Source: a virus
Taxonomy: Duplodnaviria > Caudoviricetes
DNA length: 35,874 nt
Virus record (IMG/VR): IMGVR_UViG_3300044675_004984
Span: 1-35,874 of that record
Direction: 5' to 3' (one strand)
The notes under the pieces are model-generated. The model had not been told where the DNA came from and made no database searches. It saw only the letters and a list, made by a program, of their open reading frames with translations. This document shows positions 501 to 35,872 of the stretch, piece by piece (the stretch's first letter is position 1; every line of letters starts with the position of its first letter). The translations under genes were made by a program, and so were the position numbers.

Positions 501-650
501 ATGACTCCCGCAACGCTTACGCAAACAAACACCACGACAACAACTCAAACGCAAACCAATTTGAAATGCAAAGCGTGTGACTGGAATCTGACTCACAAAA
601 ATGTGATGTACGGACATTGCCCACGTTGCGGACGATACATTCAGGTGTGA
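501..650 (+). CDS. 49-aa zinc-ribbon microprotein (not in ORF track)
   Basis: Hand translation gives MTPATLTQTNTTTTTQTQTNLKCKACDWNLTHKNVMYGHCPRCGRYIQV, with CxxC...CPxC. An extended -10 (TG-A-TAGCGT, 483-491) lies 9 nt upstream. Confidence 0.6.
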   Translation: MTPATLTQTNTTTTTQTQTNLKCKACDWNLTHKNVMYGHCPRCGRYIQV

Positions 651-662
651 GATACTTATTTC

Positions 663-836
663 ATGGCTAGACCAAAAGGCAGCGCCCTCCGCATCCGCAG
701 CATTCGTGGAGCCACTTACAAGGCAGGCAAATTGCTTGGCGACCTATCGGCTATCACCCGAGGACAGGTAGGTGGGCGCGTGACTCGTCGCCTTGCCGGA
801 AAAGTTACAGGCCGAGGGTTGAAAATCTTCAACTAA
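663..836 (+). CDS. 57-aa highly basic microprotein (not in ORF track)
   Basis: Hand translation gives MARPKGSALRIRSIRGATYKAGKLLGDLSAITRGQVGGRVTRRLAGKVTGRGLKIFN. The YK..KLLGD..A...G....R..RR.AGK.TG pattern resembles a small basic phage/bacterial family I recall. It fills the gap neatly. Confidence 0.7.
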   Translation: MARPKGSALRIRSIRGATYKAGKLLGDLSAITRGQVGGRVTRRLAGKVTGRGLKIFN

Positions 837-840
837 TTTG

Positions 841-849
841 TGTTAGTAT
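841..849 (+). promoter_or_regulatory. Extended -10 promoter for the capsid operon
   Basis: TG-T-TAGTAT (TGnTAnnnT). The predicted start near 856 coincides with the 5' end of the structured leader. Confidence 0.5.
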
Positions 850-855
850 TCTTTT

Positions 856-999
856 TGAGTAATTCGCCGCCTAGCCGCGAATAAAGGTAAGGCCCGCATA
901 GCCGGTCAATCCGCACTCGTAAAGCAAACATGACTTGTTGTTTCAAAGCCCACAACGGGCATTGCCCACAACGGGCATTACGAGAAAGCCTAGATCGCT
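856..999 (+). ncRNA. Candidate structured cis-regulatory leader RNA of the major capsid gene
   Basis: Two hairpins share the loop CGC(C/A)TAGCC (862-882, 891-907). Two tandem GCCC-ACAAC-GGGC hairpins follow (948-960, 964-976). Competing long-range pairings: 856-860/915-919 versus 916-922/978-984. Confidence 0.5.
948..979 (+). repeat. Perfect 16-bp tandem repeat GCCCACAACGGGCATT x2
   Basis: Seen directly at 948-963 and 964-979; each unit can fold as a hairpin. Confidence 0.9.
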
Positions 1000-2715
1000 A
1001 TGACTCGCATTACCGAAATTCTTGATGCGTGTGAGAACTCTGACCTGACTGACGTTCAGATCGGGGAGTTCCACACCGAACTTGTTGACCTTTTCGCTGC
1101 CATTCGCGAGGGCGAGGTTGAAGGCGTGGACGCCACCGACCTTGACACCCTGCGCGTGGTCGTTGAAACCACCGAACTTCTTTCCGTCGCTGCCGCCGAG
1201 CGTTTCGCTCAGGCTGAGGCTGCCGCCGCCGAGATTGCCGCTCTTGAAGCACGCCTCGTCGTGGCCGAGGTTGAGGCTCCCGCCGAAACCGAGGTTGTCG
1301 CTGAGGACGCTGCGACTGAGCCGACTGAGGCAGAGGTCGCTGAGGTTATCGCTGAGGCTGAGGCTGTCGTTGAGGCGGAAATCGCTGAGCCGGTCGTTGC
1401 TTCGGCCCCCGCTCTTGGCGAAATCGCTAAGGCTGCCCCCGTGAAGTCCCGCCCCCGTCCCGCTGCTCCGGCCAAGAACTACCGGATCATGGGTCAGAAT
1501 GGTGAGATTGATGGGTTCAAGGGTCTTGCTAAGGAAATGGCTGAGACTTGGAACTCGGGTACCGCAGGCGTGTACGGAAACCGTGTCCGTGTGGCCCGCA
1601 TCGCCGCTTCTTACTCCGAGGATCGTGTCCTGTCCGAGATGGACGGGTCCGCAACCGAGGACAAGATTCAGGCTGTTGTCGCCGCTGGGCAGAACCCCGC
1701 TTCGTGGACGGAGAGCATCGTTGCCTCAGGCGGCTGGTGCGCCCCGACCGATGTGGATTACGGCCTTGTGCAGATCAGCGAGGCTGGTCGTCCGGTGCGT
1801 GACTCGCTTCCCGCTTTCGCTGCAACTCGCGGCGGGCTTCGGGTTGCGACCTCCCCGACCCTTGCGGACATTGTGACCTCATACGATGCGTCTGATGCCG
1901 ATGCCGCCATTTCGGTTTGGGACAACGCAACTGACGAGGACCCCGATGGTGCGACCAAGGGCGTTCAGTCCATTGATTGCCCCGAGTTCACCGAGTACCT
2001 GACGCAAGCAATCGTGAAGCGTCTACGGTTCGGCAACATGGGTTCACGGGCGTTCCCCGAGAACGTGGCTCAGTTCAACGAACTGGCGTTTGCCGCTCAT
2101 GCTCGCGTTGCGGAAACCATTCTTCTTGACGGGATCAAGGGCGCTTCTACCGCTGTGACTGTTTCGCAGTCGTTCGGTGCGGCCCGCGATCTTGCCGAGG
2201 CGATCAAGCGTGCGGCGGTTGCTTACCGCAGCCGTCACCGTGCCCCCGGCGTGGTGCTTCGTGCGATGGTTCCCCGGTGGATCACCACCCTTGGCGATGT
2301 TGACCTCATGCGTGGTCTGCAGAGCGAGGCCGCTTTCGTGGCTGAGGGCGAGTCAATCTTCCGTAGTGCGGTTGCTGTTGCGGGCGTGAACATCACGTTC
2401 TACGACGACACCCCCACCACCGGCGTTTCGCAGGTGTTCGGCGCACAGGGCGCTGGCGCTCTGAACCCGTTCCCCAGCACCGTGCAATGGGGCCTGTACG
2501 ACGAGGGACACCACCTGTTCCTTGACGGCGGCACCCTTGACCTCGGCATCGTGCGTGACGCGAGCCTCAACAGCACCAACGATTACGAGACTTTCGTTGA
2601 GACTTTCGAGGGCCTCGCTCATCGTGGCGTTGAGTCGCTGTGGATCACTTCCACGGTTTGCCCGGACGGAACTTCGTCGGCGGGCATTGACGCCGAGGGC
2701 CTTTGCGCCTCCTGA
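1000..2715 (+). CDS. Major capsid (hexamer) protein with fused N-terminal scaffold region
   Basis: 571 aa. An acidic Ala/Glu coiled-coil N-terminus precedes IVASGGWCAP, RGGL and GGTLDLGIVRDASLNSTNDYETFVETFEG, signatures of cluster B-like actinophage capsids. Strongly biased codon usage. Confidence 0.9.
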   Translation: MTRITEILDACENSDLTDVQIGEFHTELVDLFAAIREGEVEGVDATDLDTLRVVVETTELLSVAAAERFAQAEAAAAEIAALEARLVVAEVEAPAETEVVAEDAATEPTEAEVAEVIAEAEAVVEAEIAEPVVASAPALGEIAKAAPVKSRPRPAAPAKNYRIMGQNGEIDGFKGLAKEMAETWNSGTAGVYGNRVRVARIAASYSEDRVLSEMDGSATEDKIQAVVAAGQNPASWTESIVASGGWCAPTDVDYGLVQISEAGRPVRDSLPAFAATRGGLRVATSPTLADIVTSYDASDADAAISVWDNATDEDPDGATKGVQSIDCPEFTEYLTQAIVKRLRFGNMGSRAFPENVAQFNELAFAAHARVAETILLDGIKGASTAVTVSQSFGAARDLAEAIKRAAVAYRSRHRAPGVVLRAMVPRWITTLGDVDLMRGLQSEAAFVAEGESIFRSAVAVAGVNITFYDDTPTTGVSQVFGAQGAGALNPFPSTVQWGLYDEGHHLFLDGGTLDLGIVRDASLNSTNDYETFVETFEGLAHRGVESLWITSTVCPDGTSSAGIDAEGLCAS

Positions 2716-2746
2716 TATTCACTAAGACGTAGGAAGGTGGTGGATC

Positions 2747-3625
2747 GTGGCTGATCTGTCGTACATTACGGTTGAGGGGCCACGGTCCACCCCGCCTCGT
2801 CATAGTTTGGTTGCTTCCGCTGAGGAAGTGACTGATAATGACCGTTGGATCGCAGGTATCGCTTTTGATGCGATGGGTTGCGTTGATTACGGTGGGGCAC
2901 AGTTTTATTGCCCTCCTGCTTCGGAGGAAACTCCTGAGCAGGACGCAAAAGATGAGTTCCCCGACAGTTGGGTTATTGAGTACCAGCCTTACACGCTTTA
3001 CGCTGGCGATAGATGCTCACCGGCTACTTTCCGTAGTCGGGATTTCGTTGGTCGTGCTACTGCGGCTTACGAAATTGCTGAGTCTGCGGGTATGGCAAAG
3101 GAACTTTGGGAAGGAAACGTCGCTCAGGTTGCCGGTTTGCCGAATGCGTATTTGGCTAGTCCCGATGCCGATCTGATTTCAGGCGTTTTTGCCCCGTCTT
3201 ATGGTCTTGTTGCTTTGCAACGAGAACTGGCAGAGGTTCTTCCGGGTCGTGCGATGATTCACGCTCCGAGGGACATTGCTTCGTTGTGGTATCAGGCTGG
3301 CATCATTCGCAAAGAAGGCCCGCTTCTGTTGGACGCTTTCGACAACCTCATTGTTGCCGATAACGGGTACAGCGGATCGGGTCCCAACGGCGATGCTCGC
3401 ACCGATACGACAGCGTTTGTTTATGCGACTGACCCGGTTCAGATTCGTCGGGATAGCCGCATCAGCATTCTTCCTAACCCTGATGATTACGCGGCTGCGA
3501 TGCAGCGCAACACGAACCTCATTGAGTGGCGTGCGGAGCGAATCGTTGCGGCCTACTGGAAGGGCTGCGCTCACCTTGCTATTGAAATTGATTTGTGTGA
3601 AACAGAATGTTCCACCGGTTCCTGA
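2747..3625 (+). CDS. Second capsid protein (pentamer/minor capsid type)
   Basis: 292 aa directly after the major capsid gene, with RW..G, PYTLYAGDRCS, MIHAP, GYSG.GP and N.....AER motifs of the partner capsid protein in this phage group. SD AGGAAGGT. Confidence 0.75.
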   Translation: MADLSYITVEGPRSTPPRHSLVASAEEVTDNDRWIAGIAFDAMGCVDYGGAQFYCPPASEETPEQDAKDEFPDSWVIEYQPYTLYAGDRCSPATFRSRDFVGRATAAYEIAESAGMAKELWEGNVAQVAGLPNAYLASPDADLISGVFAPSYGLVALQRELAEVLPGRAMIHAPRDIASLWYQAGIIRKEGPLLLDAFDNLIVADNGYSGSGPNGDARTDTTAFVYATDPVQIRRDSRISILPNPDDYAAAMQRNTNLIEWRAERIVAAYWKGCAHLAIEIDLCETECSTGS

Positions 3626-3666
3626 TCTGCTATTATTCGCTTTGAACGATTTGAGGTAATGAACAA

Positions 3667-4365
3667 ATGTCCGTTTGTGTAGGTTCTCTCCAAGTTTGCC
3701 GAATCCGTGTGGCTGGCCTCACGGCTGGTGGACTTCCCGACGCCGGTGAGGACACCGGCTACTCGTCTGACGCCATCATTCAGGCCAACGTGAACGTTGA
3801 GTTGGAGGCTGGCGACGACTTCGTGTTGAAGAACGGTTGTGGCAACCTTTGTCAGACGTTCAAGGACGTTGACCGTGTGAAGCGCGTCAACCTTGATATG
3901 GAGTTCTGCCAGTTGGATTCAGAACTCGTTGGTCTGCTTGTCGGCGCTGAAACGTTCTACGATCAGGCCGAGGCTGTTACCATCGGTGCTGCGCTGCCTT
4001 CTTCGACGGCTACGGCCCCGAACGGTGTCGCTCTTGAACTGTGGACGAAGGCGTGGGACAGCAACCAGCACGCCAACGCAAGCCTTATCGGTGGCGACGC
4101 CAACGATGTTCTTTACTTCCGTTGGTTCTTCCCGAAGGTTCAGTTCCAGTTGGGTCAGTTGACCTTGCAGAACGACATTCTTCGTATCCCGGTGACCGGT
4201 TACGGTCAGGAAAACGCCGAGATGCCCGCAGATGGCCCGTATCAGGATTTCCCGACCGCTGTTGTGGATGCCGGTGGCATCACCACCGCAGGCGGCTGGT
4301 TCCTTGATGACGAGATTCCCGAGGCCAACTGTGGCTACATTGAGGTTCCCACTCCGGCTTCCTGA
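3667..4365 (+). CDS. Major tail tube protein
   Basis: 232 aa; RIRV..L, E.GDDF..KNGCG.LC, GVALELWTKA, YFRWFFP and GPY motifs. SD GAGGT, with TG-C-TATTAT at 3628-3636 upstream. Confidence 0.8.
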   Translation: MSVCVGSLQVCRIRVAGLTAGGLPDAGEDTGYSSDAIIQANVNVELEAGDDFVLKNGCGNLCQTFKDVDRVKRVNLDMEFCQLDSELVGLLVGAETFYDQAEAVTIGAALPSSTATAPNGVALELWTKAWDSNQHANASLIGGDANDVLYFRWFFPKVQFQLGQLTLQNDILRIPVTGYGQENAEMPADGPYQDFPTAVVDAGGITTAGGWFLDDEIPEANCGYIEVPTPAS

Positions 4366-4383
4366 TAATCCGGGGGAGGTCCG

Positions 4384-5250
4384 GTGACTGTTCAACCGCG
4401 ACCGTGGATCACTCTTGCTGACCTAACGGACGAAGATTATTCGGACGTTTTGTGTCCGTTGCCGGAAAGCGTCAATGACGTTGCGGCACAGGCAGGTATT
4501 GATATTGCCACCGCCGTTCTGTATGAAATGACAGGGCGGCGGTGGTCCGGTACCGCTGTCTCAATTGTTCGTCCTTCTGCTGAGGACACTTCGACGGACA
4601 TTATTGTCCCCGGTTGGGTCGAAGGTTGGGGCAAGTTTGATGGTTCTACGGAATCTTGCACGCCTACACACAAGTTGGATTTGGGTTATTTCCCTGTCAT
4701 TTCTGTTGATTCTGTGCGTATCAACGGCGCTGTAGTTTCTGCTTCTACTTACCAGTTGCAGGAACAACGGTATTTGGTGAGAACAGACGGGAATGATTGG
4801 CCTTGCACGCAAAACTGGCTTTTGCCTGCGACTGATCCGAACACTTTTGCTGTGACCATCACACATGGCATTGAGCCGCCCGAAGCGGGCAAATTGGCTT
4901 GTGCCGTGTATGCGGCAGAACTGGCGAAGTCTTTCTGCAATTTGGATTGCGCTTTGCCGCAACGCACCCAATACATGACCCGTCAGGGCATCTCAACGAT
5001 CCTTATGGACCCCCTCAACGTTATTGAGCGGGGAATGATCGGGCTTCCTACCGTGGACGCATGGATCAAGGCTGTGAACCCACACAGGCGCCGTAAGCGG
5101 GCAATGATGGTTTCGGGTCGCAATGTTGAGGACCCGTATTGCCGTCCCCCGCTATCCGTTTCTCGTCTTGGGGTGGATTATTACGCTTATCCGTATCGGG
5201 AAGTGAATTGTTTCTGTGGCAGACCTAAGTTCTCTTGCGGCTGCGATTGA
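4384..5250 (+). CDS. Head-to-tail adaptor
   Basis: 288 aa; LYEMTGRRWSG, WPCTQN, G..PP..G..A....A.E..K....C.LP.R....TRQG and GLPTVDAWIKAVNP motifs. SD GGGAGGT. Confidence 0.8.
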   Translation: MTVQPRPWITLADLTDEDYSDVLCPLPESVNDVAAQAGIDIATAVLYEMTGRRWSGTAVSIVRPSAEDTSTDIIVPGWVEGWGKFDGSTESCTPTHKLDLGYFPVISVDSVRINGAVVSASTYQLQEQRYLVRTDGNDWPCTQNWLLPATDPNTFAVTITHGIEPPEAGKLACAVYAAELAKSFCNLDCALPQRTQYMTRQGISTILMDPLNVIERGMIGLPTVDAWIKAVNPHRRRKRAMMVSGRNVEDPYCRPPLSVSRLGVDYYAYPYREVNCFCGRPKFSCGCD

Positions 5251-18524: not shown

Positions 18525-18912
18525 AACTGCTTCGCCTCCACACGGCCCGCATCGCTTCCCGCTCCCTGATTGACTTGCCGCCCCATACACCGAACTCTTG
18601 ATCTGTTCTTAGGGCGTAAGCCAAACAGTCGTCGGTTACGGGACATTCAGCGCAGATTTTGCGCGCCCTGTTCATGCTTTGGGAGTCGCCTCTGCCCGGA
18701 AAAAACATTGATGTGTCTTTGTCCCGGCAAGCCGCTTTAGACACCCAAGAAGTGTCACCCTCCCTGTATCCAAGAAGGTTGTGAGCCACGGTTGTCAGCG
18801 CAGAACGCTGGCGTTCCCGGTATTCCTTCACATTGTCTGCGTTTGCTCTTTTGCAACGGGCGCACCGACAACCCGTTCGGTAGCCGCGCATCGTTCCACA
18901 ATCATCCGTCAA
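18517..18912 (-). CDS. whiB: WhiB-family regulator with N-terminal CGT..GY..GCRC..C module
   Basis: W...AAC.....MFFP, ICAECPV...CL.YAL and FGVWGG motifs; SD AAGGAG. Confidence 0.9.
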   Translation of the reverse strand: MTDDCGTMRGYRTGCRCARCKRANADNVKEYRERQRSALTTVAHNLLGYREGDTSWVSKAACRDKDTSMFFPGRGDSQSMNRARKICAECPVTDDCLAYALRTDQEFGVWGGKSIREREAMRAVWRRSSYV

Positions 18913-19942
18913 TTCCTTGCTCCTTCACCCATTCCAATATCGCTAATGCTGCACTTCGACTAGAGAGATGCCCCGAGTCCGGTTGGATAGCATACACGGA
19001 CCGGGCAACCTCTCTGCGCCGCTCCGCATAAATTGGATCAAACGCTTTCGCCAACCCTTCTGCCAAAGATTCGTTTGGTCGCACAACCGGCCCAACATCT
19101 GCGTAATCCCAAAAGCGCAAACCGTGTGAAACCCCTTTGCGCCATTTTGCTGACTCCATCAAGACAACGGGAATGTCTAGAGCCGCTGCTTCAAAAATGA
19201 TTGAACTGTTATCTATAAACAAAACGTCAATTCGTTTGACGACCTGATCCCATTCTTTTACAACGTCAACTTTTTGGTCCAGCCAGTATGGAAACAGATA
19301 GTTCCAAGCCTTCGGATGGCCGTGCCCAACAACGTCATAACCGCACACTCGCGAGTAGTGCAGAAAATCTTTCATTTGATCAGAGAATTCCCCAAAGGCC
19401 GAACCGCTTTCCGGCGTTATTTGGCAGTCCCAATGGAAAGACACGCCAATAGTCGGTGTCTTGAACCCCTTTTTGACTCTGCGATTCACAAAAAGATCAT
19501 CTAAGCGCGGTGAGCCAACAACCGCCACAGAACTAGACGGATAGGCGTCAAGGTTTCTTTTAGCCACTTCGTTGTTAGGGCAGATAAACAAACCAACTTT
19601 GTTTCGGTTCCTGCCACCGGAATAGCCGCCATGAATAGATCCGTCCTCACGAACGTAAGTTTGTCCTGCCCCGTGTTCAACAAAAATGATTGGCCTTTTG
19701 CTCATTTTTACTAGGTCCGAATACCCGGCAACGATCATCGGTTCGTTATTGCGTAAGGCGAGTGCGGTCTGACCGTTTGAGCGACTTAGTGTTGCTTCGA
19801 TGCCCCAATTCGCTAAATGGTTTTTGATGGTTTGGGACGGGACAACAAACTGGCCTTTGTGTTCATTGTCCAACCGATCCCAAATAGGAGCGATGTGATC
19901 GGCGTAATGCGACCACGCTGCGTATGCGTTGATTTTGGTCAT
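18902..19942 (-). CDS. GT-B fold glycosyltransferase (CDP-glycerol glycerophosphotransferase/sialyltransferase-like), 346 aa
   Basis: IFVEHGAG, VVGSPRLD, GHPK and DVLFIDNSSIIFEAAALDIPVVL motifs; ATGA overlap gives start 19942. Confidence 0.7.
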   Translation of the reverse strand: MTKINAYAAWSHYADHIAPIWDRLDNEHKGQFVVPSQTIKNHLANWGIEATLSRSNGQTALALRNNEPMIVAGYSDLVKMSKRPIIFVEHGAGQTYVREDGSIHGGYSGGRNRNKVGLFICPNNEVAKRNLDAYPSSSVAVVGSPRLDDLFVNRRVKKGFKTPTIGVSFHWDCQITPESGSAFGEFSDQMKDFLHYSRVCGYDVVGHGHPKAWNYLFPYWLDQKVDVVKEWDQVVKRIDVLFIDNSSIIFEAAALDIPVVLMESAKWRKGVSHGLRFWDYADVGPVVRPNESLAEGLAKAFDPIYAERRREVARSVYAIQPDSGHLSSRSAALAILEWVKEQGIDG

Positions 19943-20382
19943 GGCAATTTTTGGAGGAAAAACTGAATGTCCCCACCGTTCCTTTTCATTCGGACCTTTT
20001 TGAATTGATAAATGTCCCCTAAGAATTGTGCGCCAAGCGGCCCATTCAAGGTTTCGCCCTTGCACCAGTAATCGAAAGTCCGGTCGGTCACAAACCGAAC
20101 GTGAGTGGGATCAGTAAACGCGTTTTCGGAAGTCCAATGTGGGCAAATGATGGTCAGTCGGCCACCCGGCTTCAACACACGCCAACATTCCAATACGAAA
20201 TCAATTGGCTTGCCTACATGCTCGTAAATGTGTGAAGCAAAAATGTCTGATGCGGAATCGTTGTCGAACGGCCACGGAAAAGTATCCAAGTCCATAACAA
20301 CGTCCACGCCGGGAAGCGGATGATGATCACAGTTGGTCCAGCCGCCTTTCACATCTTTGCCACAACCCAAATTGATTTTCAT
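19939..20382 (-). CDS. Class I SAM-dependent methyltransferase (Methyltransf_11-like), 147 aa
   Basis: INLGCG, WPF.NDS, SHIYEHV, ECWRVLKPGG and DPTHVR motifs; ATGA overlap. Confidence 0.85.
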   Translation of the reverse strand: MKINLGCGKDVKGGWTNCDHHPLPGVDVVMDLDTFPWPFDNDSASDIFASHIYEHVGKPIDFVLECWRVLKPGGRLTIICPHWTSENAFTDPTHVRFVTDRTFDYWCKGETLNGPLGAQFLGDIYQFKKVRMKRNGGDIQFFLQKLP

Positions 20383-20927
20383 TCCGGCCCCCATTCTCCG
20401 AACCAAACTGATCCTGCACCAATTGTGTACGGCTCCCATTTGAAACCGTTTTTGTATTCCCAAACGCCTTCGCCACGATAAACGCAGCCCCATCGGTCAG
20501 CACCGAATCCGTCAACCAATTCTGCGTCTAGCGTCCAGTTGTATCCGAGCGGGACCGTAACAAGCATTGATCCGTTTGCCGATAGAAGCGACAACAAATG
20601 TTGTATTGCTTCTGCCGGGTTACGTCTACCCGGCTCGTTGTCCCAGCCCACATGCTCAATAGTGGAAATTGCTAAAACCCAATCAAATTGTTCTCCAACT
20701 TCAAACAGGTTTGTGTTGCTTACCCATTCGTCGGTTTCCATAAGGTCAATAACTTTGTGATGTGGCTTGATGTAATGGCCGGTTACGTTGCCGACCTCCA
20801 AACCTTTGCCGCTTCTGCGTCCGAGCCAATCAAAAACGACAGGGAGTTCTATCTGCCGTTCGTTGGTGTGAGTCCAGTTGTAGGAGTGCCAAAACGGGCG
20901 CAAAGTTTTGTCCCGGTATCTAAACAC
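20379..20927 (-). CDS. SAM-dependent methyltransferase-like protein, 182 aa
   Basis: NERQIELPV, LEVGNV, FDWVLAISTIEHVGWD and G.MLVTVPLGYN motifs; the GTG start overlaps the upstream stop. Confidence 0.7.
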   Translation of the reverse strand: MFRYRDKTLRPFWHSYNWTHTNERQIELPVVFDWLGRRSGKGLEVGNVTGHYIKPHHKVIDLMETDEWVSNTNLFEVGEQFDWVLAISTIEHVGWDNEPGRRNPAEAIQHLLSLLSANGSMLVTVPLGYNWTLDAELVDGFGADRWGCVYRGEGVWEYKNGFKWEPYTIGAGSVWFGEWGPE

Positions 20928-21930
20928 TTTGCAAACCCGTTTCCCAAACCGGCAATAAACGTTCCCAAGATCGTGTCTCTGCCCATGCCCGACCTTCTTC
21001 GGAAGCACGCACAATCGGGTGAATTGTTGATCCGGCAATGGCGTCAATGCGACTGGCAAGCATTTGGGGTTCGACGCCCCACATTGGGATTTTGCCGCCC
21101 TTCATCAAACGTGGCCTTTCTCGAAACGCCGGTACCCCAATAATGGGCCATGCGGCCTGCGGGTCAACTTCCGGCATCATCACAAGGCAGCCATGACCGA
21201 ACGCTTCAAAAGCGGGGAGGCAAAGTCCTGCGTAGCGGCGCGGCAGAACAACTAGATCGGCCCATTGGAAAAGAACTTTCATCGAATCCATGTATTCGGT
21301 GTTTTGCCGCATTTTGATGTTTGACGGCATTTTGCGGTGAAGCAAGTCGTTTGTTTGATTGCTTTCGTCGGGCTGGTGAACCATTACTTCCAGCGATGAC
21401 GAAACGTGCTGCAACGCTTGAAGAAAAAGTTCGGTTCCGTTTCTGTCGTATTGAGCGCCACCCGAAATGTGAAGCACGCGCTTGATAGAAGTTCTTGCAT
21501 TCCATTTGATCGGCGGATCGGTGGGCCAATGAACCACTTTTGATCCTTTAGGCATTCGGGATTGCAAGTAATCGGTCGGGTTCCAAACTTGCGTTGCCGT
21601 TGAACCGGAGAACAGTTCCGGCATGGCATACAAAACGGATTTCTTACCGGCGTCCTCAATGATTTTTTCTGCGTGGTTGTTGTACCAAGTCTCAGCGGTC
21701 CACCAAATGTCTGCTTGCGGAGCAAGGAATTCCCATATGTCGTCGCTAATTGGGTTGCTGACAAGAAATGTAGAAGTCCACGCTTCTTCAAAAACTATGG
21801 GCCTTGGTTCGCCACGGCAGGGTCGTGATTGGACAACAACGGTTGTCGCTGGTTTCAAGTTTCTAAATGCGTCATAGGTCAGATTGCCCAACCCGCCGTT
21901 GTCGTCACGAACCACAATCCCGAGTTTCAT
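20920..21930 (-). CDS. GT4-like glycosyltransferase, 336 aa
   Basis: N-terminal LGIVVRDDNGGLG, AETWY, DRNGT and ADLVVLPRRYAGLCLPAFEAFGHG (E-x7-E-like region), like mycobacteriophage glycosyltransferases. Confidence 0.8.
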   Translation of the reverse strand: MKLGIVVRDDNGGLGNLTYDAFRNLKPATTVVVQSRPCRGEPRPIVFEEAWTSTFLVSNPISDDIWEFLAPQADIWWTAETWYNNHAEKIIEDAGKKSVLYAMPELFSGSTATQVWNPTDYLQSRMPKGSKVVHWPTDPPIKWNARTSIKRVLHISGGAQYDRNGTELFLQALQHVSSSLEVMVHQPDESNQTNDLLHRKMPSNIKMRQNTEYMDSMKVLFQWADLVVLPRRYAGLCLPAFEAFGHGCLVMMPEVDPQAAWPIIGVPAFRERPRLMKGGKIPMWGVEPQMLASRIDAIAGSTIHPIVRASEEGRAWAETRSWERLLPVWETGLQSV

Positions 21931-21942
21931 TTGAGTCCCCGC

Positions 21943-22122
21943 TCAATAGTCAATGTCAAGATTCGATGCTTGCCGTATCGCGTCACGTTCTCGGCGCAAT
22001 TCTTCGCAGTAACAAAGTTCTTCCGGGTCGCAATCGTCGTAGTGGTCGTCGTGGAGGAAGCCGTCTGATGAGTAATAAGCGTCAGAAAGCGATTCTGCCT
22101 TGCGGAAACTAAATGAAGTCAT
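21943..22122 (-). CDS. Small acidic Cys/His protein (59 aa)
   Basis: Fills the gap between two glycosyltransferase genes; HDDHYDDCDPEELCYCEEL. Confidence 0.55.
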   Translation of the reverse strand: MTSFSFRKAESLSDAYYSSDGFLHDDHYDDCDPEELCYCEELRRERDAIRQASNLDIDY

Positions 22123-23080
22123 TCCCCACACCTGTTTCTTCCAAAAGTGTTCTCACCCTATTATTATAGGTATGGTTACGCGCTGTCCAGTCACGACACA
22201 CGGATCGCGTGTCGGCATTGGCCCCCGAATCGCTCAGAAAGGCCCCTATTTTGCGTTCTAAGGCCGTCCAGTCCCCCCAGCCGTACATCGGGACCTGATT
22301 TTCGGATTGAACGCTCAGGGCCTCTATTTTCGGCATGATCAGCAGCCCGCCACGACCGGTGGCCTCATACACCCGATCAGACCAATACAAGGACTTTTCT
22401 CTGTCCAAACAAAGGCTGTCACCAACGGTCACTTTTGCCGACCGATAAAAATCGTTCATTCTTCGGTTGCGTTCCAAACGCCGAGTATCCCCGCCGGGAT
22501 TCTTGAACTTCCAACCATTTCTTTCGCACATTTCCCGCAAAGCAGCAATCAAATCGGCACGGTACGTCCATTGCTTGTGATAATGGCCGCCATTGCTGCC
22601 AATGAAAGCAACATCACATTTATCGCTTGCACGCAAACGACCCACATCTTGTGTCCAGCGCCGTCGAACCCCCGGCAACAACCACTTGTGGTTTACGCCC
22701 ATTTTTTCCCAATCTTCAGCGTGCCCACCATCGGCAGTAAAGACAAAATCTGCTGCCCACATCGCAGAACGTTTCCAATTCGGACGGCTCAAACCCCAAA
22801 AAAGGTCGGCGTGCCAACCAGCCGTTACGCAATACCGTGACAGCGACGACATAAATCTTTTGCTGTGATTCAGGCGAGAAGAAATCCACAGCAACAATTC
22901 TGAACGCTTTGCCGCTTGCCGAATCTGTGCTTCGGTCGCCAATTCGTCAAGGAAAATAACGTTGAAGCCTTCCGCTTCAAATGCGTCCTTCCAATCCGCC
23001 TCAGCGTTCCACAGCCAACCCGTATAGCCGACAATTGTGATGTTGGGTTTATCGTCCGCAGCCACAGCCCGATTTAGCAA
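22109..23080 (-). CDS. CgeB/Glyco_trans_1_2-like glycosyltransferase
   Basis: HADLFWGL.R, FTADGGH, GVNH.WL.PGV, DVAFIGS, FYRSAKVTVGDS and YWSDRVYEATGRGGLLI motifs, then HTY..RV. The start may be GTG 23065. Confidence 0.82.
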   Translation of the reverse strand: MLNRAVAADDKPNITIVGYTGWLWNAEADWKDAFEAEGFNVIFLDELATEAQIRQAAKRSELLLWISSRLNHSKRFMSSLSRYCVTAGWHADLFWGLSRPNWKRSAMWAADFVFTADGGHAEDWEKMGVNHKWLLPGVRRRWTQDVGRLRASDKCDVAFIGSNGGHYHKQWTYRADLIAALREMCERNGWKFKNPGGDTRRLERNRRMNDFYRSAKVTVGDSLCLDREKSLYWSDRVYEATGRGGLLIMPKIEALSVQSENQVPMYGWGDWTALERKIGAFLSDSGANADTRSVCRDWTARNHTYNNRVRTLLEETGVGNDFI

Positions 23081-23291: not shown

Positions 23292-24746
23292 CTATCTCAA
23301 TCGCGCCAAAGGTCGGCTAGAAACTCTGCTTGAAGGTAATGCTGGGCGAGAAGTTGGAATGCTTTTCCGACGCCGAGAAACTCGTCTGCCCGTCAGCCAA
23401 CCAGCCGCCAAAGAAACAGCGTCCACTTGGTCGTCATGGTTGCCCATCGGGAATTCTTCAAGTTCTTCCAAGAAGTCAGGAATCCAGTCTCCGTCCAAAA
23501 CGGTGACGCGACCCTGTTCGGCAAGCAATGACCAAATCTCTGCGCGCGTCTGCTTATCCCCCGAAGGCGCTACTCCTTCGACGCGAGCGAAGCCTGACAA
23601 CGCCCGAGAGTATGCGGCGATCATTGCCTTACCTGCCGAACCCGGTTCTTTTTCAATCAACACGCGAGGCAAGGCATCTACACGGGTTTGACGCATAACT
23701 TTGTCTTGCGTTGCTCCCGGCCCCAATCGCCAACGAACAATATGTTGAATTTGCAAAACGCCGGGAACGTCCGACCCTTCAACGGGGCGGGTGCCGTCCC
23801 AAGCCAAAAGCGCACCAACCGTCCAGTCGGGATCAGGGTTGCCGTCTGATGGTTCCGTAGCCGCCAAGTCCCATGCACGAATCCGTTTCACGTTTGGCCC
23901 ATCAAGAGGTTTTTCTGTAATCGGAAACCATTGCCGAGAAAAAACCGAACCGGAATCCGTCAGCAATTCCGCCATAAGTTCCTGACGCCCAAGTCGTGTT
24001 CCTTCATAACGAGAAAGAATCCGATCACGGTATTCGGCACCAAGGTTCATAAGGTTGTCGTAAGTCGTTCCACGCGTGACAACGGTTCCATCATCGTTCA
24101 TAAGATCGTGAATAAGGCGCACATTTTTGGGTGTACCCGTGACCATGATTCGTGGATCAGGCGGCAGACGGCAACCAATCAGCGCCATAGCCATTGTCGT
24201 GTCCTCTTTCATACCTAAAAGGGCATCACGGAATTCTGCGGGTTCGTCGCACCAAACAAAGTGATGCTGTGGCCCACGAAGCCGAGCGGCCTTCTCTGCG
24301 CTGAACCCCTTCATTTTTGCACCGTTCGCCAAAGTCAATTCGCAGGCAACACGGTTCCATGAGTTTTCAACAGAACCATTCACCAACATTGAAGGCGGCA
24401 AAACCCGCAGAAGGCCCGATTCGCCTTCCACCATAACCAAACGAACGTTTTCTAGTGTCGGCGCTACCAGCGCCCCTCGGGGAACGCCGCCCGGAACGTC
24501 AAGAGTTTCGCAGCGGTGCTTGACCCATTCGGCACCGGCCCGAGTTTTTCCGGCACCACGACCAGCCATGAAAAGCCAAACCGACCATTGACCATCAGGT
24601 TCCAACTGTTCAGGTCGTGCCCAAAACGGCCAATACTCTTGCAAGGATTCTTGTTCGGCTTTGCTGAGACTTTGAAAAATCTCTGTGCGCTGCTCAGGGC
24701 TAAGCCCAGCAACGCGTTGCGCCAAACTTTTACTGCTGCCGGTCAT
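23292..24746 (-). CDS. terL: Terminase large subunit
   Basis: ARPEQ, Walker A GRGAGKT, LRGPQHHFVWCDE (Walker B), VTGTPK, YEGTRLGRQEL, nuclease motifs AWDLAA and HDDQVDA. Confidence 0.95.
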   Translation of the reverse strand: MTGSSKSLAQRVAGLSPEQRTEIFQSLSKAEQESLQEYWPFWARPEQLEPDGQWSVWLFMAGRGAGKTRAGAEWVKHRCETLDVPGGVPRGALVAPTLENVRLVMVEGESGLLRVLPPSMLVNGSVENSWNRVACELTLANGAKMKGFSAEKAARLRGPQHHFVWCDEPAEFRDALLGMKEDTTMAMALIGCRLPPDPRIMVTGTPKNVRLIHDLMNDDGTVVTRGTTYDNLMNLGAEYRDRILSRYEGTRLGRQELMAELLTDSGSVFSRQWFPITEKPLDGPNVKRIRAWDLAATEPSDGNPDPDWTVGALLAWDGTRPVEGSDVPGVLQIQHIVRWRLGPGATQDKVMRQTRVDALPRVLIEKEPGSAGKAMIAAYSRALSGFARVEGVAPSGDKQTRAEIWSLLAEQGRVTVLDGDWIPDFLEELEEFPMGNHDDQVDAVSLAAGWLTGRRVSRRRKSIPTSRPALPSSRVSSRPLARLR

Positions 24747-31104: not shown

Positions 31105-33564
31105 TTATGTACCCATCTCATAAATGTATTCGATGAGGCAACGGCACCCGTTGTGGTCGCCGGGGAAGAAAAACGCTGTGTCAGGGAAAGTTTCTGTATT
31201 TGAAAGAATCTCATCCTCAAATGAAACAAATTCAGTTCCATCTAGGTCCAAGTGGGGTTCAAACGTAACTCGGTCGTCCTCACCATAAACCCAACGGTAA
31301 CCGCCGACAGACAGCCCCGCCGCTTGGAAATACAAGTCTGCGGTTTCCCCCGTAGCCAAAAGCCCCAACGGACGATCTTCGATATCAATAATGGCTCCAC
31401 CGGAAGTGCCAACTCCCATATTGCCCCCGGCAGCAGAAAGAGCGGCACGAATTACATAAGTTGGGACAAGAGAAATCTCGTCGAATTCGCCACGGTCCTC
31501 CCCATTCAAATCAATGGGGCTGATTTTGGGGCGGTATAGCAAAGACGCTGCGACAGCAACCAAAGCGCCGGAAAGAAGAAGCCAAGCGGCGTCCCTTTCT
31601 ACATTCTGCTGCTGTTCCATAAGCACAATTTCGGCCTCGCTGAGTCCGTATTCTTTGGCGAGTTGACGTACCTGTTTTTGGGCACGACGAGTCAAAGAAT
31701 CAAACTGTTCACCAAAATCTTCAAATTCTTCGCCGGTAAGAAGGGAAACATTGTCGAATAGTGTTTCAACAGTTTCGCGACCCAAAACAAAAGCAACTTC
31801 GTGCGCCGGGGCAGAAGCAACCAACGCTTTCTTTTCGGGGTCACGCGAAACCCGTGACCGCACTCTTGCCCCCGCCTTCTCTAAAGCACGCTTCATTGCA
31901 GCGCTGGCAAGAATTTCCAAACGGTCCAACAGGCGTGCATCAATCGTGACAAGTCGGGCACCAAGATCAATGCGAGTTGCCGCAGCAACCAAAGTGTCAG
32001 GTTCACTACGCTCAATGTCGGCAGGATTATTTGGTTCAATCGGACGCTCAACATCAGGTGCCCGACCCCGAGGATCAGGATCAGCGGTAATGGACTCCGG
32101 CGTCGGAACACCCGGACGGACCCGAGCGACCGAATCGTCAAGCGCTTGCGTCACAGAATCAATTTCGCCCGCCGCAACTGGCGTCAACGAAAGCGCCGCC
32201 TGCTGCAACGCCATACGACGCTTATATTCCAAATCGTCAGGTGCGTCATCATCAGAAAAACCAAGCGCACGCCGGTAAGTGGAATCAGAAATAACCAGCG
32301 ACGAATGACCATCTTTCGCGTTCATGCGCCGGTCAATGTGAGAAATCAAATCAATGGGATCGGACATAACGACAAGGCGCTGATCAACATCTTGACCAGT
32401 AGCAACCTGAATCGCAGGCCAAATCAAGTTGGCGGTAATCGCCCCGCAGAACAACGCTGCTGCTGGCGCGATGTGAGCCTTGTAAGCCATTTCTTCAACG
32501 GCCCACGCAGACCAATGGTTCATCTGCCCGATGCCGGAAAGAATTTCGCTTGGAAGATCAATCCCATGAGCAATACGAGTAATGAGTTCGTGACGCTGCT
32601 CAGCGGCGATCTGATCAACTTCCCGATCAAATTCGATAAGCCGCACCTGTTCCAAATCTTCGGGGTCGCCCGTCAAAATAAAAGGCGCTACAGCCGCAGC
32701 AGAGTTCGGGTCGGCAATCGGGGTGATGAAGTGGTTATAAATATCTTCAAGCGTTGATTGCGACTGTTGTTCTCGCGCCGCATCATTGTTCAAGTTTTCA
32801 GGTTCGTAATCGGGGCCTGCGTCAAGCATCGTGTCGGGCATCAACAAAATCCCTGCCGGAATCCGCGAAAGTGCTGTAGCGCGCACGTTTGCGGACAGCA
32901 ACAAAAGTTCTTCGCAGAGAGAAAGCACGGAACGTAGCGGCGAATCCGGCTCGTCGGAATAGCGGGGGTGCGCTTGCCAAACACGAATGACGTAATCGTC
33001 GCCGGACAACTCAATAAGTTGATCCGTTTTCCAAAGAACGTTTTCTTTCAAATACCAACGGCTGTTCAACCAAACCAATTGTTCCGTTGAGTAAAAATCC
33101 CAGCGCTCAACACCCGTTTCTCTGTCTGTGCGGCCAACCAAATATCCTTCGCCAGCAACAAACAGGTTCACACCGTAGGCACGCAGGATTTCGTTGATGC
33201 TTCCTTCCGAGGAATGCAAACGGTCCAATGTGGAAACAGCGATTTCGTACTGTGCCCGATTGAAACCTTCGGGCGGATTTTCTAAATCAATTGGTTGAGG
33301 GGAACTGCCCGAAGATGGTTTCCAACCGATTTCAAGGCGGAGTTGCGAAAGGGCGTTGCCGTAATAGCGTGCCCCATAACGCAACTCACCGATGAGGTCA
33401 TAGAAGTTCCATGCCTGCTGCTGCCATTCGACAATACGGTGATCTTCGGGGCGGTACGCAACCCCCCCATTGGGGTGCATCACTCGTTGCGAGGCGGCGA
33501 CTAGAGCGCGTGGCGTGAATGTTTTTGCCGTTTGTGTCGGCTTGTTACGAAAAGCGGGAGGCAT
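31105..33564 (-). CDS. Portal protein fused to C-terminal MuF-like domain
   Basis: WQQQAW.FYD.IGELRY, L.VAGEGYL, R.W..HPR....DSP, AGIL.MP and NHWSAW portal motifs; Pro-rich linker; C-terminal Y.W.YG...F.PH..LDG and FPGDHNGCRC. Confidence 0.88.
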   Translation of the reverse strand: MPPAFRNKPTQTAKTFTPRALVAASQRVMHPNGGVAYRPEDHRIVEWQQQAWNFYDLIGELRYGARYYGNALSQLRLEIGWKPSSGSSPQPIDLENPPEGFNRAQYEIAVSTLDRLHSSEGSINEILRAYGVNLFVAGEGYLVGRTDRETGVERWDFYSTEQLVWLNSRWYLKENVLWKTDQLIELSGDDYVIRVWQAHPRYSDEPDSPLRSVLSLCEELLLLSANVRATALSRIPAGILLMPDTMLDAGPDYEPENLNNDAAREQQSQSTLEDIYNHFITPIADPNSAAAVAPFILTGDPEDLEQVRLIEFDREVDQIAAEQRHELITRIAHGIDLPSEILSGIGQMNHWSAWAVEEMAYKAHIAPAAALFCGAITANLIWPAIQVATGQDVDQRLVVMSDPIDLISHIDRRMNAKDGHSSLVISDSTYRRALGFSDDDAPDDLEYKRRMALQQAALSLTPVAAGEIDSVTQALDDSVARVRPGVPTPESITADPDPRGRAPDVERPIEPNNPADIERSEPDTLVAAATRIDLGARLVTIDARLLDRLEILASAAMKRALEKAGARVRSRVSRDPEKKALVASAPAHEVAFVLGRETVETLFDNVSLLTGEEFEDFGEQFDSLTRRAQKQVRQLAKEYGLSEAEIVLMEQQQNVERDAAWLLLSGALVAVAASLLYRPKISPIDLNGEDRGEFDEISLVPTYVIRAALSAAGGNMGVGTSGGAIIDIEDRPLGLLATGETADLYFQAAGLSVGGYRWVYGEDDRVTFEPHLDLDGTEFVSFEDEILSNTETFPDTAFFFPGDHNGCRCLIEYIYEMGT

Positions 33565-33635: not shown

Positions 33636-33869
33636 CTAGGGCACCGGGTCGGTAGTGAACTCGGCCCATGCTTCGGCCTCGTCGATGAGTGCTTGCGGTT
33701 CCAACCCAACAGCGTTAGCGGCGTCCTGCACAGTCACCACTTCGGTAACGGCGAGCAGGGTGGCGAGCGCCCCGATCGGGTCTAGCGGTGACGGGTCACG
33801 CCACACCTCAACGCTAGACACAAGGTTGCCGTCGGCGTCCCACGTTTCGTCAATGTCCAAGCGTTTCAT
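33636..33869 (-). CDS. Small acidic protein coupled to the fibre gene (possible fibre chaperone), 77 aa
   Basis: ATGA overlap with the collagen gene; GALATLL...[16 protein letters not shown]. Confidence 0.6.
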
Positions 33870-35872
33870 GTGTCCCACCTTGCCCTCACCCAATAACAGA
33901 ACAGGCCACTAGAGGTTCCCCCACCGGCTCCGAACGCTGTACCGGGGTTCTCCGCAACACCGAACGTTCGTGCAACCTCAGCGGTGAACCGGTACTGGTC
34001 GCTGTTGTTCATCGGGATAGTGCCCCGTGCAATGAAACCGCGATGGCCTGTGAATTGCGGTCGGGTTGCACTTGCGTCTGTCTGATACCTGAACAGGTAC
34101 ACACCGGGAGACAGCACAACGCTCAAAGAGGTCAGCGCCTTATCTCCCGTTGAGTCCACCGTGACGAGGCCAACGTCAGAAACCAAGTCGCCCGGTTGGA
34201 AATCGTCGCCTGCCTTGTAGATAGAGATTCGTCCCTGCGCTCCAGCCGTGCCAGCGACAGAAACCCTGACCATCATTGACGTAATTGTTATCTGTTTCTC
34301 AACTAGCACAGGTTGGTAGTAGGCGGTCGAAGCGCCTAGAAAGTTGATTGCCTGTCCGGTGCTAATGAACAACCCGGGATAGCCCCACCAGTTACTCACA
34401 GCGAAACGGTTGTTGATAGCGAGACCGGGACCGGTCGCACCCGTCGCACCGGTGGCCCCAGTGGCACCGGTAGCGCCGCTTGGACCTTGTGGTCCTGTGT
34501 CACCAGTCGGTCCTGTGTCACCGGTAGGACCTTGAACACCAGCCGCAATGTAATCCCAATAAGCGGTATTGACGGTGCCGCCAATAACCGGAGCCTCATT
34601 AGTGGAACCCGCCGTCGCAATGTACGAACCGACCGTCAAACCGACACCGGTGATCGTCCCGGTATAAACAACAATGTCACCCACCGAGTAGGTGGTCCCC
34701 GAGTTCCACTCGCCCTCCCACGTCGAGATGAACGCACCCGTTGGTCCGGTCGCCCCGGTCGCCCCGTTCGCACCCGTTGCGCCTTGCGGACCAGTTGCAC
34801 CGGTCGGACCGACAGCACCCGTCGCACCGTTCGCACCGGTCGCACCCTGCGGTCCAGTTGCACCCGTGTCACCGACAGCGCCCGTGGCACCGATAGCACC
34901 TTGCGGGCCTTGCGCTCCTTGCGGACCTTGCGGACCTGCGGCACCCGTGTCGCCCGTCGCACCGTGAGCGCCCTGAGGACCCACCGCACCCTGCGGACCC
35001 TGCGGTCCCGTATCGCCTTGCGGCCCGATAGCACCCTGAGCGCCCGTAGCACCCTGCGCACCAACGGCGCCCTGCGGACCGGTGTCCCCCGTAGCGCCGA
35101 CAGCGCCCTGAGGACCGACCGAACCCTGCGGACCAGCAGGACCCGTATCGCCCGTGTCGCCCTGAGGTCCCTGAGGACCGATGGCCCCCTGAGGTCCCTG
35201 AGGACCCTGAGCGCCGGTAGCCCCGGTGTCTCCTGTGGACCCGGTAGCACCCTGCGGACCCTGCGCTCCTTGCGGCCCCTGCGGGCCTGTAGCACCCTGA
35301 GGACCAGCGGCACCCTGAGCACCGGTAGCGCCCTGAGGACCGGTCGGACCCTGAGCGCCTGTAGCGCCCTGCGGACCGATCTCGCCTTGCGGACCCGTGG
35401 AGCCTTGTGACCCTTGCGGGCCGACTGAACCCTGCGGCCCTTGCGGACCGGTAGACCCCTGAGGACCGGTCGCCCCGACCGCACCCTGAGGACCTGTGGC
35501 ACCTTGCGAACCCGTAGCCCCCTGTGGGCCTGCCGCTCCCTGAGGGCCGGTTGGACCTGTAGGGCCTTGCGGACCCTGTTCACCGGTCAACGCCAATACC
35601 AAAATAACCTCGTGGTTGTTGGCGAACCCGGTTGTTCCGGTGCCGCCACTAGCAACCAGCGTCACAGGAAACACCCAATACGTCACCTGATTAGTTGGCG
35701 TGCCGGACACTTCCCACCGTTGGAAGTTGTCGGACAACGAAGCGTCCTGAATCACGAAAGTGTCGCCGTCGTTCAACAAGCCAAGAAAAATATCAACGTC
35801 AAAGCCGTCTTTGTCAATGTGACTGACGTGAATTGCCGTCGCTGACGTTTGCGTAGCGTTGTTGTAGAGCAG
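33866..35872 (-). CDS. Collagen-like fibre protein (5' truncated) with CBM5/12-like module and C-terminal beta domain
   Basis: The frame is open to the window end ([12 protein letters not shown]...). 94 uninterrupted Gly-X-Y triplets, then [17 protein letters not shown]...SY.A....P.....YW, then 13 more triplets. Confidence 0.88.
34424..35584 (-). repeat. 9-bp-periodic collagen-coding repeats (two blocks)
   Basis: Blocks at about 35584-34739 and 34540-34424 encode [12 protein letters not shown] triplets. Confidence 0.9.

What the first reader, a model, noticed from the sequence alone, without database searches (positions are those of the whole stretch)
841..999. Multi-hairpin leader RNA with duplicated loops and an RBS-occluding alternative pairing before the major capsid gene
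Seen: an extended -10 predicts a start near 856. ATTCGC[CGCCTAGCC]GCGAAT and GGCC[CGCATAGCC]GGTC have different stems but nearly identical 9-nt loops, and are closed by TGAGT/ACTCG (856-860/915-919). Two identical GCCC[ACAAC]GGGC hairpins follow. CTCGTAA (916-922) is perfectly complementary to TTACGAG (978-984), which overlaps the likely RBS GAGAAAG, and this pairing excludes the first closing stem. A third GCCTAG sits at 988-993. Inference: a protein-responsive translational switch with paired binding loops that controls capsid output. I do not recognise it as a named RNA family.
Basis: partly seen in the sequence, partly recalled or inferred. Interest (0 to 1): 0.72.

Follow-up and report, generated by a model that had tools for sequence, protein, structure and literature searches.

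The report
Twin-hairpin switch on capsid translation
In front of the main capsid gene, many uncultured viruses of actinobacteria keep a folded RNA leader with two matching loops that is in no RNA family library searched; it is predicted to hide the gene's start signal until a protein, possibly part of the viral portal, binds the loops and likely switches capsid production on.

Summary
Twin hairpins with C-V-U-A-G loops (V = A, C or G), 20-40 nt apart, occur in 41 of 111 non-redundant leaders of this capsid family (shuffles 1.9). Their stems covary, they follow a conserved -10 box (27 of 38), and they occur once per phage. In folding models both hairpins form in the nascent 5' part (27 of 38) but survive in the full leader in only 2 of 38, because one arm pairs over the ribosome-binding site or start codon. 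The hairpin state is therefore the predicted ON state. The GCCC hairpins and the third GCCTAG are not family features. No Rfam match. The ligand is not shown. The best lead is a basic domain on the portal, present in 19 of 19 CVUAG phages with a portal and 0 of 11 of the other leader clade.

The parts
819..849 (+). Predicted promoter: TTGAAA (819-824) and extended -10 TG-n-TAGTAT (841-849); predicted start near 856
   Evidence: Sequence; TANNNT lies 15-32 nt before loop 1 in 27 of 38 family leaders versus 0-2 in four shifted controls; start site not mapped
856..860 (+). 5' strand of closing stem P1 (pairs with 915-919 in the nascent, ON-type fold)
   Evidence: Prefix folding probability 0.83-0.86 up to nt 980; TGAGT...ACTCG kept in L002
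862..882 (+). Hairpin H1, loop CCUAG at 870-874
   Evidence: covariation
891..907 (+). Hairpin H2, loop CAUAG at 897-901; the switching hairpin in this phage
   Evidence: Formed (0.91-0.97) until the start codon is transcribed, then 0.0; locking it lowers RBS opening energy from 11.1 to 5.2 kcal/mol
897..922 (+). Anti-start / anti-RBS strand of the OFF fold: 897-902 with 997-1002, 904-907 with 993-996, 916-922 with 978-984
   Evidence: in L002 the H2 3' arm pairs with a different spacer sequence (CAGGUG/CACCUG), so the helix is kept with changed letters
923..979 (+). Non-conserved spacer hairpins (923-944, 948-960, 964-976; 948-979 is a 16-nt tandem duplication) that would bring the anti-RBS and RBS together
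   Evidence: single copy in L002
982..1002 (+). Likely ribosome-binding site GAGAAAG (982-988; weak, 11 nt from the start) and ATG at 1000
   Evidence: Sequence; start matches profile position 1 of the family; CGAGAAAG kept in L002
1000..2715 (+). Major capsid protein, HK97 fold with a ~245-aa N-terminal extension; first gene of the head-tail operon
   Evidence: phrog_777 E=1.6e-58; AlphaFold model and Foldseek matches to HK97-fold capsids
31570..31977 (-). Basic helical domain (about aa 530-665, R-x-x-E-R/K-A-G-x-R motif) of the portal-MuF-like gene 31105-33564; candidate trans-activator, inferred only
   Evidence: Co-occurrence; motif changes in phages with other loops; portal phrog_776; weak MuF hit at aa 748-810, E=0.004

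Best explanation
The leader carries two covarying hairpins with C-V-U-A-G loops that are predicted to fold first and then be replaced by a longer helix over the ribosome-binding site and AUG, so it likely acts as an OFF-by-default translational switch that a loop-binding protein would hold ON. Shown by sequence comparison: loop conservation, stem covariation, position just after a -10 box, one copy per phage, and co-evolution of the hairpin arms with each phage's own RBS region. Predicted by folding models: the two states and their order. Inferred: that the trigger is a multivalent protein from the phage's own head-assembly module. The top candidate is the basic domain appended to the portal, which would tie capsid synthesis to the presence of portal.
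For: Twin CVTAG in 41 of 111 leaders; shuffles mean 1.9, max 6; reverse strand 1; upstream 0 of 106; coding 0 of 111. With one loop mismatch allowed, 49 of 111 versus 3-8 in 12 shuffles. Stems: 78.6% of 360 cells paired versus 57.1% shuffled, 86 versus 38 double changes, slid controls 25-41% (36 sequences). In 16 pairs of relatives, 25 of 96 cells show compensatory double changes versus 4.8 expected. Motif-to-own-RBS duplex -23.8 versus -19.1 kcal/mol for other RBSs, 0 of 20000 permutations. Locking both hairpins lowers RBS opening energy by 4.6 kcal/mol (at least 2 in 27 of 38) versus 1.0 in 228 chimeric controls. Both hairpins are formed in the 5' prefix in 27 of 38 but in the full leader in 2 of 38. 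One site per genome: the 17 hits at E<0.02 in 36 records were the capsid-leader training sites (window). Only core virion genes are shared by 11 or more of 13 motif-bearing genomes. Other clades keep leaders with other twin loops or another 5' motif. The portal domain is in 19 of 19 CVUAG records that have a portal, 3 of 3 class III twin-loop records, 0 of 11 class II records, and 0 of 8 cultured phages plus one weak hit, E=8e-5, in the ninth. Its ERAG motif is altered in the 3 class III phages. Satellite-like elements without a portal keep twin CVUAG loops (L209, L220).
Against: No binding, probing or reporter data. The switch is not predicted in 11 of 38 leaders, including satellite L209 (opening 6.0 versus 6.6). 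25 of 96 relative-pair cells changed with a broken pair. Holding the window's ON state costs about 6 kcal/mol, and about 13 if P1 is also required. The portal link is essentially one phylogenetic contrast (class II is one side of the tree), and the domain also occurs where no CVUAG twin was called (G025/L072, L051, G052, G053/G054). An OFF-by-default leader on a highly expressed gene is unusual. The loop consensus was first spotted by eye in 25 of the leaders later counted.
Confidence: 0.55

Rival explanations
1. Kinetic switch with no ligand: the hairpins delay the OFF helix and give ribosomes a short window during transcription, as recalled for the MS2 maturation-gene leader; CVUAG is just a fast-folding loop.
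For: Prefix folding gives hairpins first and the OFF helix later. No motif-specific trans gene among 13 genomes.
Against: It does not explain two copies of one loop sequence held at 26-28 nt (23 of 42 spacings) across capsids about 30-40% identical, or clade-specific alternative loops.
Confidence: 0.15
2. Autogenous activation: the capsid protein itself, through its basic linker or the ~90-aa middle domain released on maturation, binds the loops and amplifies its own translation.
For: The capsid protein is the only homologous gene shared by the phages and the motif-bearing satellites. Satellites keep the basic linker and middle domain. A plant-virus coat-protein arm binds a hairpin with an AUA loop (PMC5758871).
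Against: No capsid column separates CVUAG from non-CVUAG leaders. The linker is basic in five of the six non-CVUAG groups too. Positive feedback is the opposite of the autoregulation named in the P22 scaffolding reference titles.
Confidence: 0.12
3. A host RNA-binding protein of Actinomycetota recognises CVUAG hairpins and opens the leader under some physiological state.
For: The motif spans phages and integrated elements in several actinobacterial groups and persists in satellites that lack head genes.
Against: Five host genomes gave 14-23 pattern matches each, most at spacings in multiples of three that look like antisense codon repeats, with no evident regulon by eye. Loop dialects follow the phage tree.
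Confidence: 0.12
4. The loops are nuclease or repressor sites: cutting or binding there favours the OFF helix or mRNA decay, so the element limits capsid output.
For: The anti-RBS strand lies 3' of a loop, so cleavage in the loop would free it (anatomy).
Against: The OFF fold already dominates without help, so a repressor adds little, and a second loop that excludes OFF would not need conserving.
Confidence: 0.06

Closest known systems
Phage Mu Com / mom translational activation (PMC6483171, Introduction read)
   Same: A phage protein binds a hairpin upstream of a start site and exposes signals hidden in an inhibitory structure.
   Different: Here there are two identical loops, the target is the major capsid gene, and no Com-like gene is family-wide: a small zinc-ribbon ORF at 501-650 occurs only in the window's own clade (phrog_13819 E=0.11).
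ANTAR dual-hexaloop RNAs (PMC8934654, passages)
   Same: Two tandem hairpins with like loops; one overlaps a mutually exclusive inhibitory helix; the bound state is ON.
   Different: Loops are C-V-U-A-G pentaloops (C-G-closed triloops), not A1/G4 hexaloops. The competing helix covers the RBS and start, not a terminator. No ANTAR protein was seen among shared genes.
P22 scaffolding-protein autoregulation (reference titles only; mechanism recalled)
   Same: Post-transcriptional control of a head-assembly gene by the state of assembly.
   Different: Predicted sign is activation, the regulated gene is the capsid, and a defined covarying RNA structure is present.
Candidate phage cis-regulatory motifs: GP20-a (RF02991), GP20-b (RF03003) and capsid-linked csRNAs of Fremin et al. 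(PMC10690425); Mu-gpT-DE (recalled)
   Same: Structured leaders upstream of phage head genes, function untested.
   Different: No Rfam match. The capsid rows in their within-25-bp table name HK97, N4 or podovirus domains, while this capsid has no Pfam family hit. Their alignments and diagrams could not be read, so overlap is not excluded.
Brome mosaic virus stem-loop C AUA loop, clamped adenine motif (PMC5758871, passages)
   Same: A small AUA loop recognised by viral proteins; CAUAG is the commonest loop here.
   Different: Unrelated plant RNA virus; the first loop base tolerates A, G or C here, whereas A-to-G damages the BMV motif.

Membership tests
Any Rfam 15 family | Covariance-model match at gathering score, or a weaker match | tested here: not met
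   0 in the window at gathering, 0 at E<=10 in 600-1100, only a tRNA in 17 motif loci
ANTAR-target RNA | Two tandem hairpins, one exclusive with an inhibitory helix | tested here: met
   (computational)
ANTAR-target RNA | Hexaloops with conserved A1 and G4 | tested here: not met
   Loops are C-V-U-A-G, second base A 34 / G 30 / C 17 / T 3 of 84; definition
ANTAR-target RNA | A cognate ANTAR-domain protein | tested here: inconclusive
   None among shared phage genes; no ANTAR hit at E<=1 for 19 portal-domain members; host ANTAR proteins not examined
Mu Com/mom system | Start signals hidden in an inhibitory structure beside the binding hairpin | tested here: met
   (folding models)
Mu Com/mom system | Com-family CCCC zinc-finger activator encoded with the target | tested here: not met
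   The zinc-ribbon ORF has no Pfam Com hit at E<=1, a weak PHROG hit, and is confined to four related phage groups
Mu Com/mom system | Protein binding activates translation | not testable with these tools
   Needs binding and reporter assays
Small-molecule riboswitch | Conserved ligand-binding core beyond simple loops | tested here: not met
   Only the two 5-nt loops are 90% or more conserved in alignment A2
Fremin et al. 2023 candidate RNAs | Identity with a listed model | not testable with these tools
   Model and diagram files unreadable

The most novel reading that the evidence does not exclude
A portal-sensing RNA switch: a basic domain on the portal ring binds the twin CVUAG loops and licenses capsid translation, so coat protein is made only when and where a portal exists. 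Portal-less satellites keep the same leader to make their own capsid only when a helper phage supplies portal, and loop and domain have co-diverged into several dialects.
Probability: 0.3. Interest if true: 0.9.

Novelty: new variant of a known kind. Interest (0 to 1): 0.74.

Why it matters
It defines an uncatalogued, strongly covarying RNA switch on the major capsid gene of a broad group of uncultured actinobacterial phages and their satellites. It points to late-gene control at the level of translation behind an ordinary-looking -10 promoter. How a phage ensures one portal per capsid is open: PMC5529062 lists an obligate portal/mRNA interaction among proposals with little evidence. This leader and the portal domain give a concrete RNA and protein pair with which to test that. 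Related dialects occur in cultured Gordonia phages (class II), and orthogonal loop-protein pairs would be useful translation switches.

Tried and rejected
Rfam: nothing. blastn of the leader against cultured phages: only short chance hits. Cultured phages: 0 of 11 capsid leaders have twin CVUAG. Regulon in the phage: no second site. Zinc-ribbon ORF as family-wide ligand: rejected. WhiB: BLAST found it only in the window's clade. Large terminase: different PHROG families among motif carriers. No conserved small gene between protease and capsid. Capsid, protease and minor-capsid column tests gave no convincing signature; adaptor and portal hits had too few independent negatives. Capsid middle domain: no fold match, best Z 3.5. 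Portal domain: no Pfam, PDB or Atlas identification; no complex prediction was obtained, so its oligomeric state is open. DNA-operator reading: rejected because spacing varies 20-40 nt, the stems covary and the site is downstream of the -10. RNA data: lake metatranscriptome contigs cover 876-4420 in patches and none of 1-875 in 4 runs; two runs share an 876-1026 piece joining leader and coding region. These are 151-nt low-depth pieces, no DNA control was laid and only 4 of 24 listed runs were examined, so this does not map the start. The label 'Patience/Rosebush-type' in my notes was recalled and is not supported (no PDB sequence match). My class II pattern over-called some rows, so class II counts use the tree clade.

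Full report
Context. The window is a whole 35.9-kb virus record. It has WhiB genes, terminase, portal and a head-tail operon led by a 571-aa major capsid protein at 1000-2715 (phrog_777; HK97 fold with a long N-terminal extension). Relatives are annotated 'major capsid hexamer protein' in cultured actinobacteriophages, and most related genome contigs are titled Actinomycetota. An actinobacterial host is therefore inferred.

Observation. The first relatives already showed what is conserved: L002 (capsid 90% identical) keeps TGAGT...ACTCG and two CATAG loops on different stems, but has one GCC-type hairpin rather than two and no third GCCTAG.

Family. Four searches gave 232 loci. After removing loci without a usable start or with under 170 nt upstream (16 removed by hand), 188 leaders including the window fell into 111 clusters at 80% identity. 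Twin C[ACG]TAG sites 20-40 nt apart occur in 41 of 111 (shuffle mean 1.9, max 6; reverse strand 1; upstream control 0 of 106; coding control 0 of 111), and C.TAG ranks first of 256 such patterns. Allowing one loop mismatch gives 49 of 111 against 3-8 in 12 shuffles. I first saw the loop in 25 of these leaders, so the count is not fully blind; a later unbiased scan added two new capsid leaders. The stems covary: the top three pairs are formed in 68-85% of loops against 40-66% permuted; on alignment A2 (36 of the 41) 78.6% of cells pair against 57.1%, with 86 against 38 double changes; among 16 pairs of relatives that I chose, mostly from the tree, 25 of 96 cells are compensatory double changes (null 4.8), 5 single, 41 unchanged and 25 changed with a broken pair. 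A -10 box lies 15-32 nt before loop 1 in 27 of 38 against 0-2 in shifted controls. The motif occurs once per phage (the model is weak, 0.49 bits per position). Rfam has nothing.

Switch. For these tests I dropped L207, L210 and L211 as doubtful, leaving 38. The motif region pairs with its own RBS region more strongly than with others (-23.8 against -19.1 kcal/mol; 0 of 20000 permutations). Both hairpins are predicted in the 5' prefix in 27 of 38 but in the full leader in 2 of 38; H1 is lost in 11, H2 in 19, both in 6. Locking them lowers RBS opening energy by 4.6 kcal/mol against 1.0 in 228 chimeric controls, and by at least 2 in 27 of 38. In the window P1, H1 and H2 form until nt 980. In L002 the same arm pairs with a different spacer sequence. 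So the predicted resting state is OFF and the twin-loop state is ON. These are thermodynamic models, not measurements, and 11 of 38 leaders do not show the effect.

Trigger. Two identical loops on variable stems suggest a multivalent protein (inference). Among 13 motif-bearing genomes only core virion genes are widely shared. A zinc-ribbon ORF at 501-650 resembles Com weakly but is confined to the window's clade. On a FastTree tree of the capsids, CVUAG leaders fill one 79-row side (support 84, not strong) that also holds a small clade with twin AU(G/C)(A/G)AUU loops (class III); the other side mostly has a GAG-YGM...G-UAC-CUC leader (class II) whose 3' strand again looks like an anti-SD, also seen in cultured GMA2 and Mareelih. 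A basic helical domain after the portal core is present in 19 of 19 CVUAG records with a portal and 3 of 3 class III records, and absent from 11 of 11 class II records and 8 of 9 cultured phages, with one weak hit. It is kept where the distal MuF-like part is lost, and its R-x-x-E-R-A-G motif is changed in the class III phages. Against this: it is close to one phylogenetic contrast, and the domain is also in G025, G052, G053/G054 and L051, where no CVUAG twin was called. Fifteen of 23 genome loci tested are solitary capsid genes. Those annotated lie in elements with terminase and, variously, primase/helicase, WhiB and integrase, with shortened capsid N-termini; these look like satellites. L209 and L220 keep twin CVUAG loops, and their host assemblies gave no portal match (the assemblies may be incomplete). 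That fits a helper-supplied trigger, the capsid itself, or a host protein.

Comparison. It works like Mu Com/mom (PMC6483171, Introduction read) and like ANTAR dual-hairpin RNAs (PMC8934654, passages), but fails their defining features: no family-wide Com, and no A1/G4 hexaloops. P22 scaffolding autoregulation is known to me from reference titles and recall; the MS2 kinetic leader and Mu-gpT-DE are recalled. PMC5758871 (passages) gives a precedent for protein reading of an AUA loop. PMC11965321 (passages) did not bear on the RNA. Nine literature searches listed no description of this motif. The library lacks most subscription papers, and the model files of PMC10690425 could not be read (passages; supplement list and searches), so an unannotated entry there is not excluded.

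Verdict. The RNA motif is real (about 0.95) and is probably an OFF-by-default translational switch (about 0.8). A protein activator from the phage head module is my best reading (0.55), and the portal domain specifically about 0.3. New variant of a known kind; interest 0.74.

Noticed in passing
L196, L201-L203, L205, L206, L208-L211, L213, L214, L216, L219, L220 (genome contigs): Solitary capsid genes with shortened N-termini and no protease, portal or minor capsid within the flanks; those annotated have terminase plus primase/helicase, WhiB or integrase: likely an undescribed satellite group of Acidimicrobiia and Solirubrobacterales.
   Followed up: partly
capsid leaders of L074, L078, L082, L087, L089, L102, L112, L059 and cultured GMA2 (L235), Mareelih (L242): A second leader motif, GAG-YGM...G-UAC-CUC(C), whose 3' strand looks like an anti-SD; testable in cultured Gordonia phages. 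No covariation test run.
   Followed up: partly
capsid leaders of L020, L024, L028, L030, L031; L217; L203, L205, L208, L216; L051, L079, L133, L144, L147: Further leader dialects: AU(G/C)(A/G)AUU loops, twin GGUAUGA loops, a GAGCCGGUGGCAGCGU motif in satellites, and a GGGUCCAGGGGACUCC motif.
   Followed up: partly
window 501-650 (+): Small CxxC...CxxC zinc-ribbon ORF conserved in three related phage groups near the capsid gene; weak Com-like hit.
   Followed up: yes
window 663-836 (+): Small basic 57-aa ORF ending just before the promoter; a similar ORF precedes the leader in L002; no family hit.
   Followed up: partly
window 31105-33564 (-), 1000-2715 (+), L115 10-1359: Portal, capsid and protease share (L/V)-V-A-(A/S)-(A/G/S) motifs at domain borders, possibly maturation-protease sites (inferred). 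The portal carries a MuF-like C-terminus.
   Followed up: no
capsid aa ~160-245: Compact middle domain (pLDDT 85 alone for L045) with no fold match; class II clade capsids share a GGDGE(Q/K) loop there.
   Followed up: partly
window 18902-23080 (-) and 33866-35779 (-): Cluster that reads like glycosyl- and methyltransferase genes (by eye, not scanned) and a collagen-like repeat protein; portal and terminase lie on the strand opposite the capsid operon.
   Followed up: no
window near 24704 (-): GGG[CUUAG]CCC hairpin inside the start of the large terminase gene; single, probably chance.
   Followed up: no
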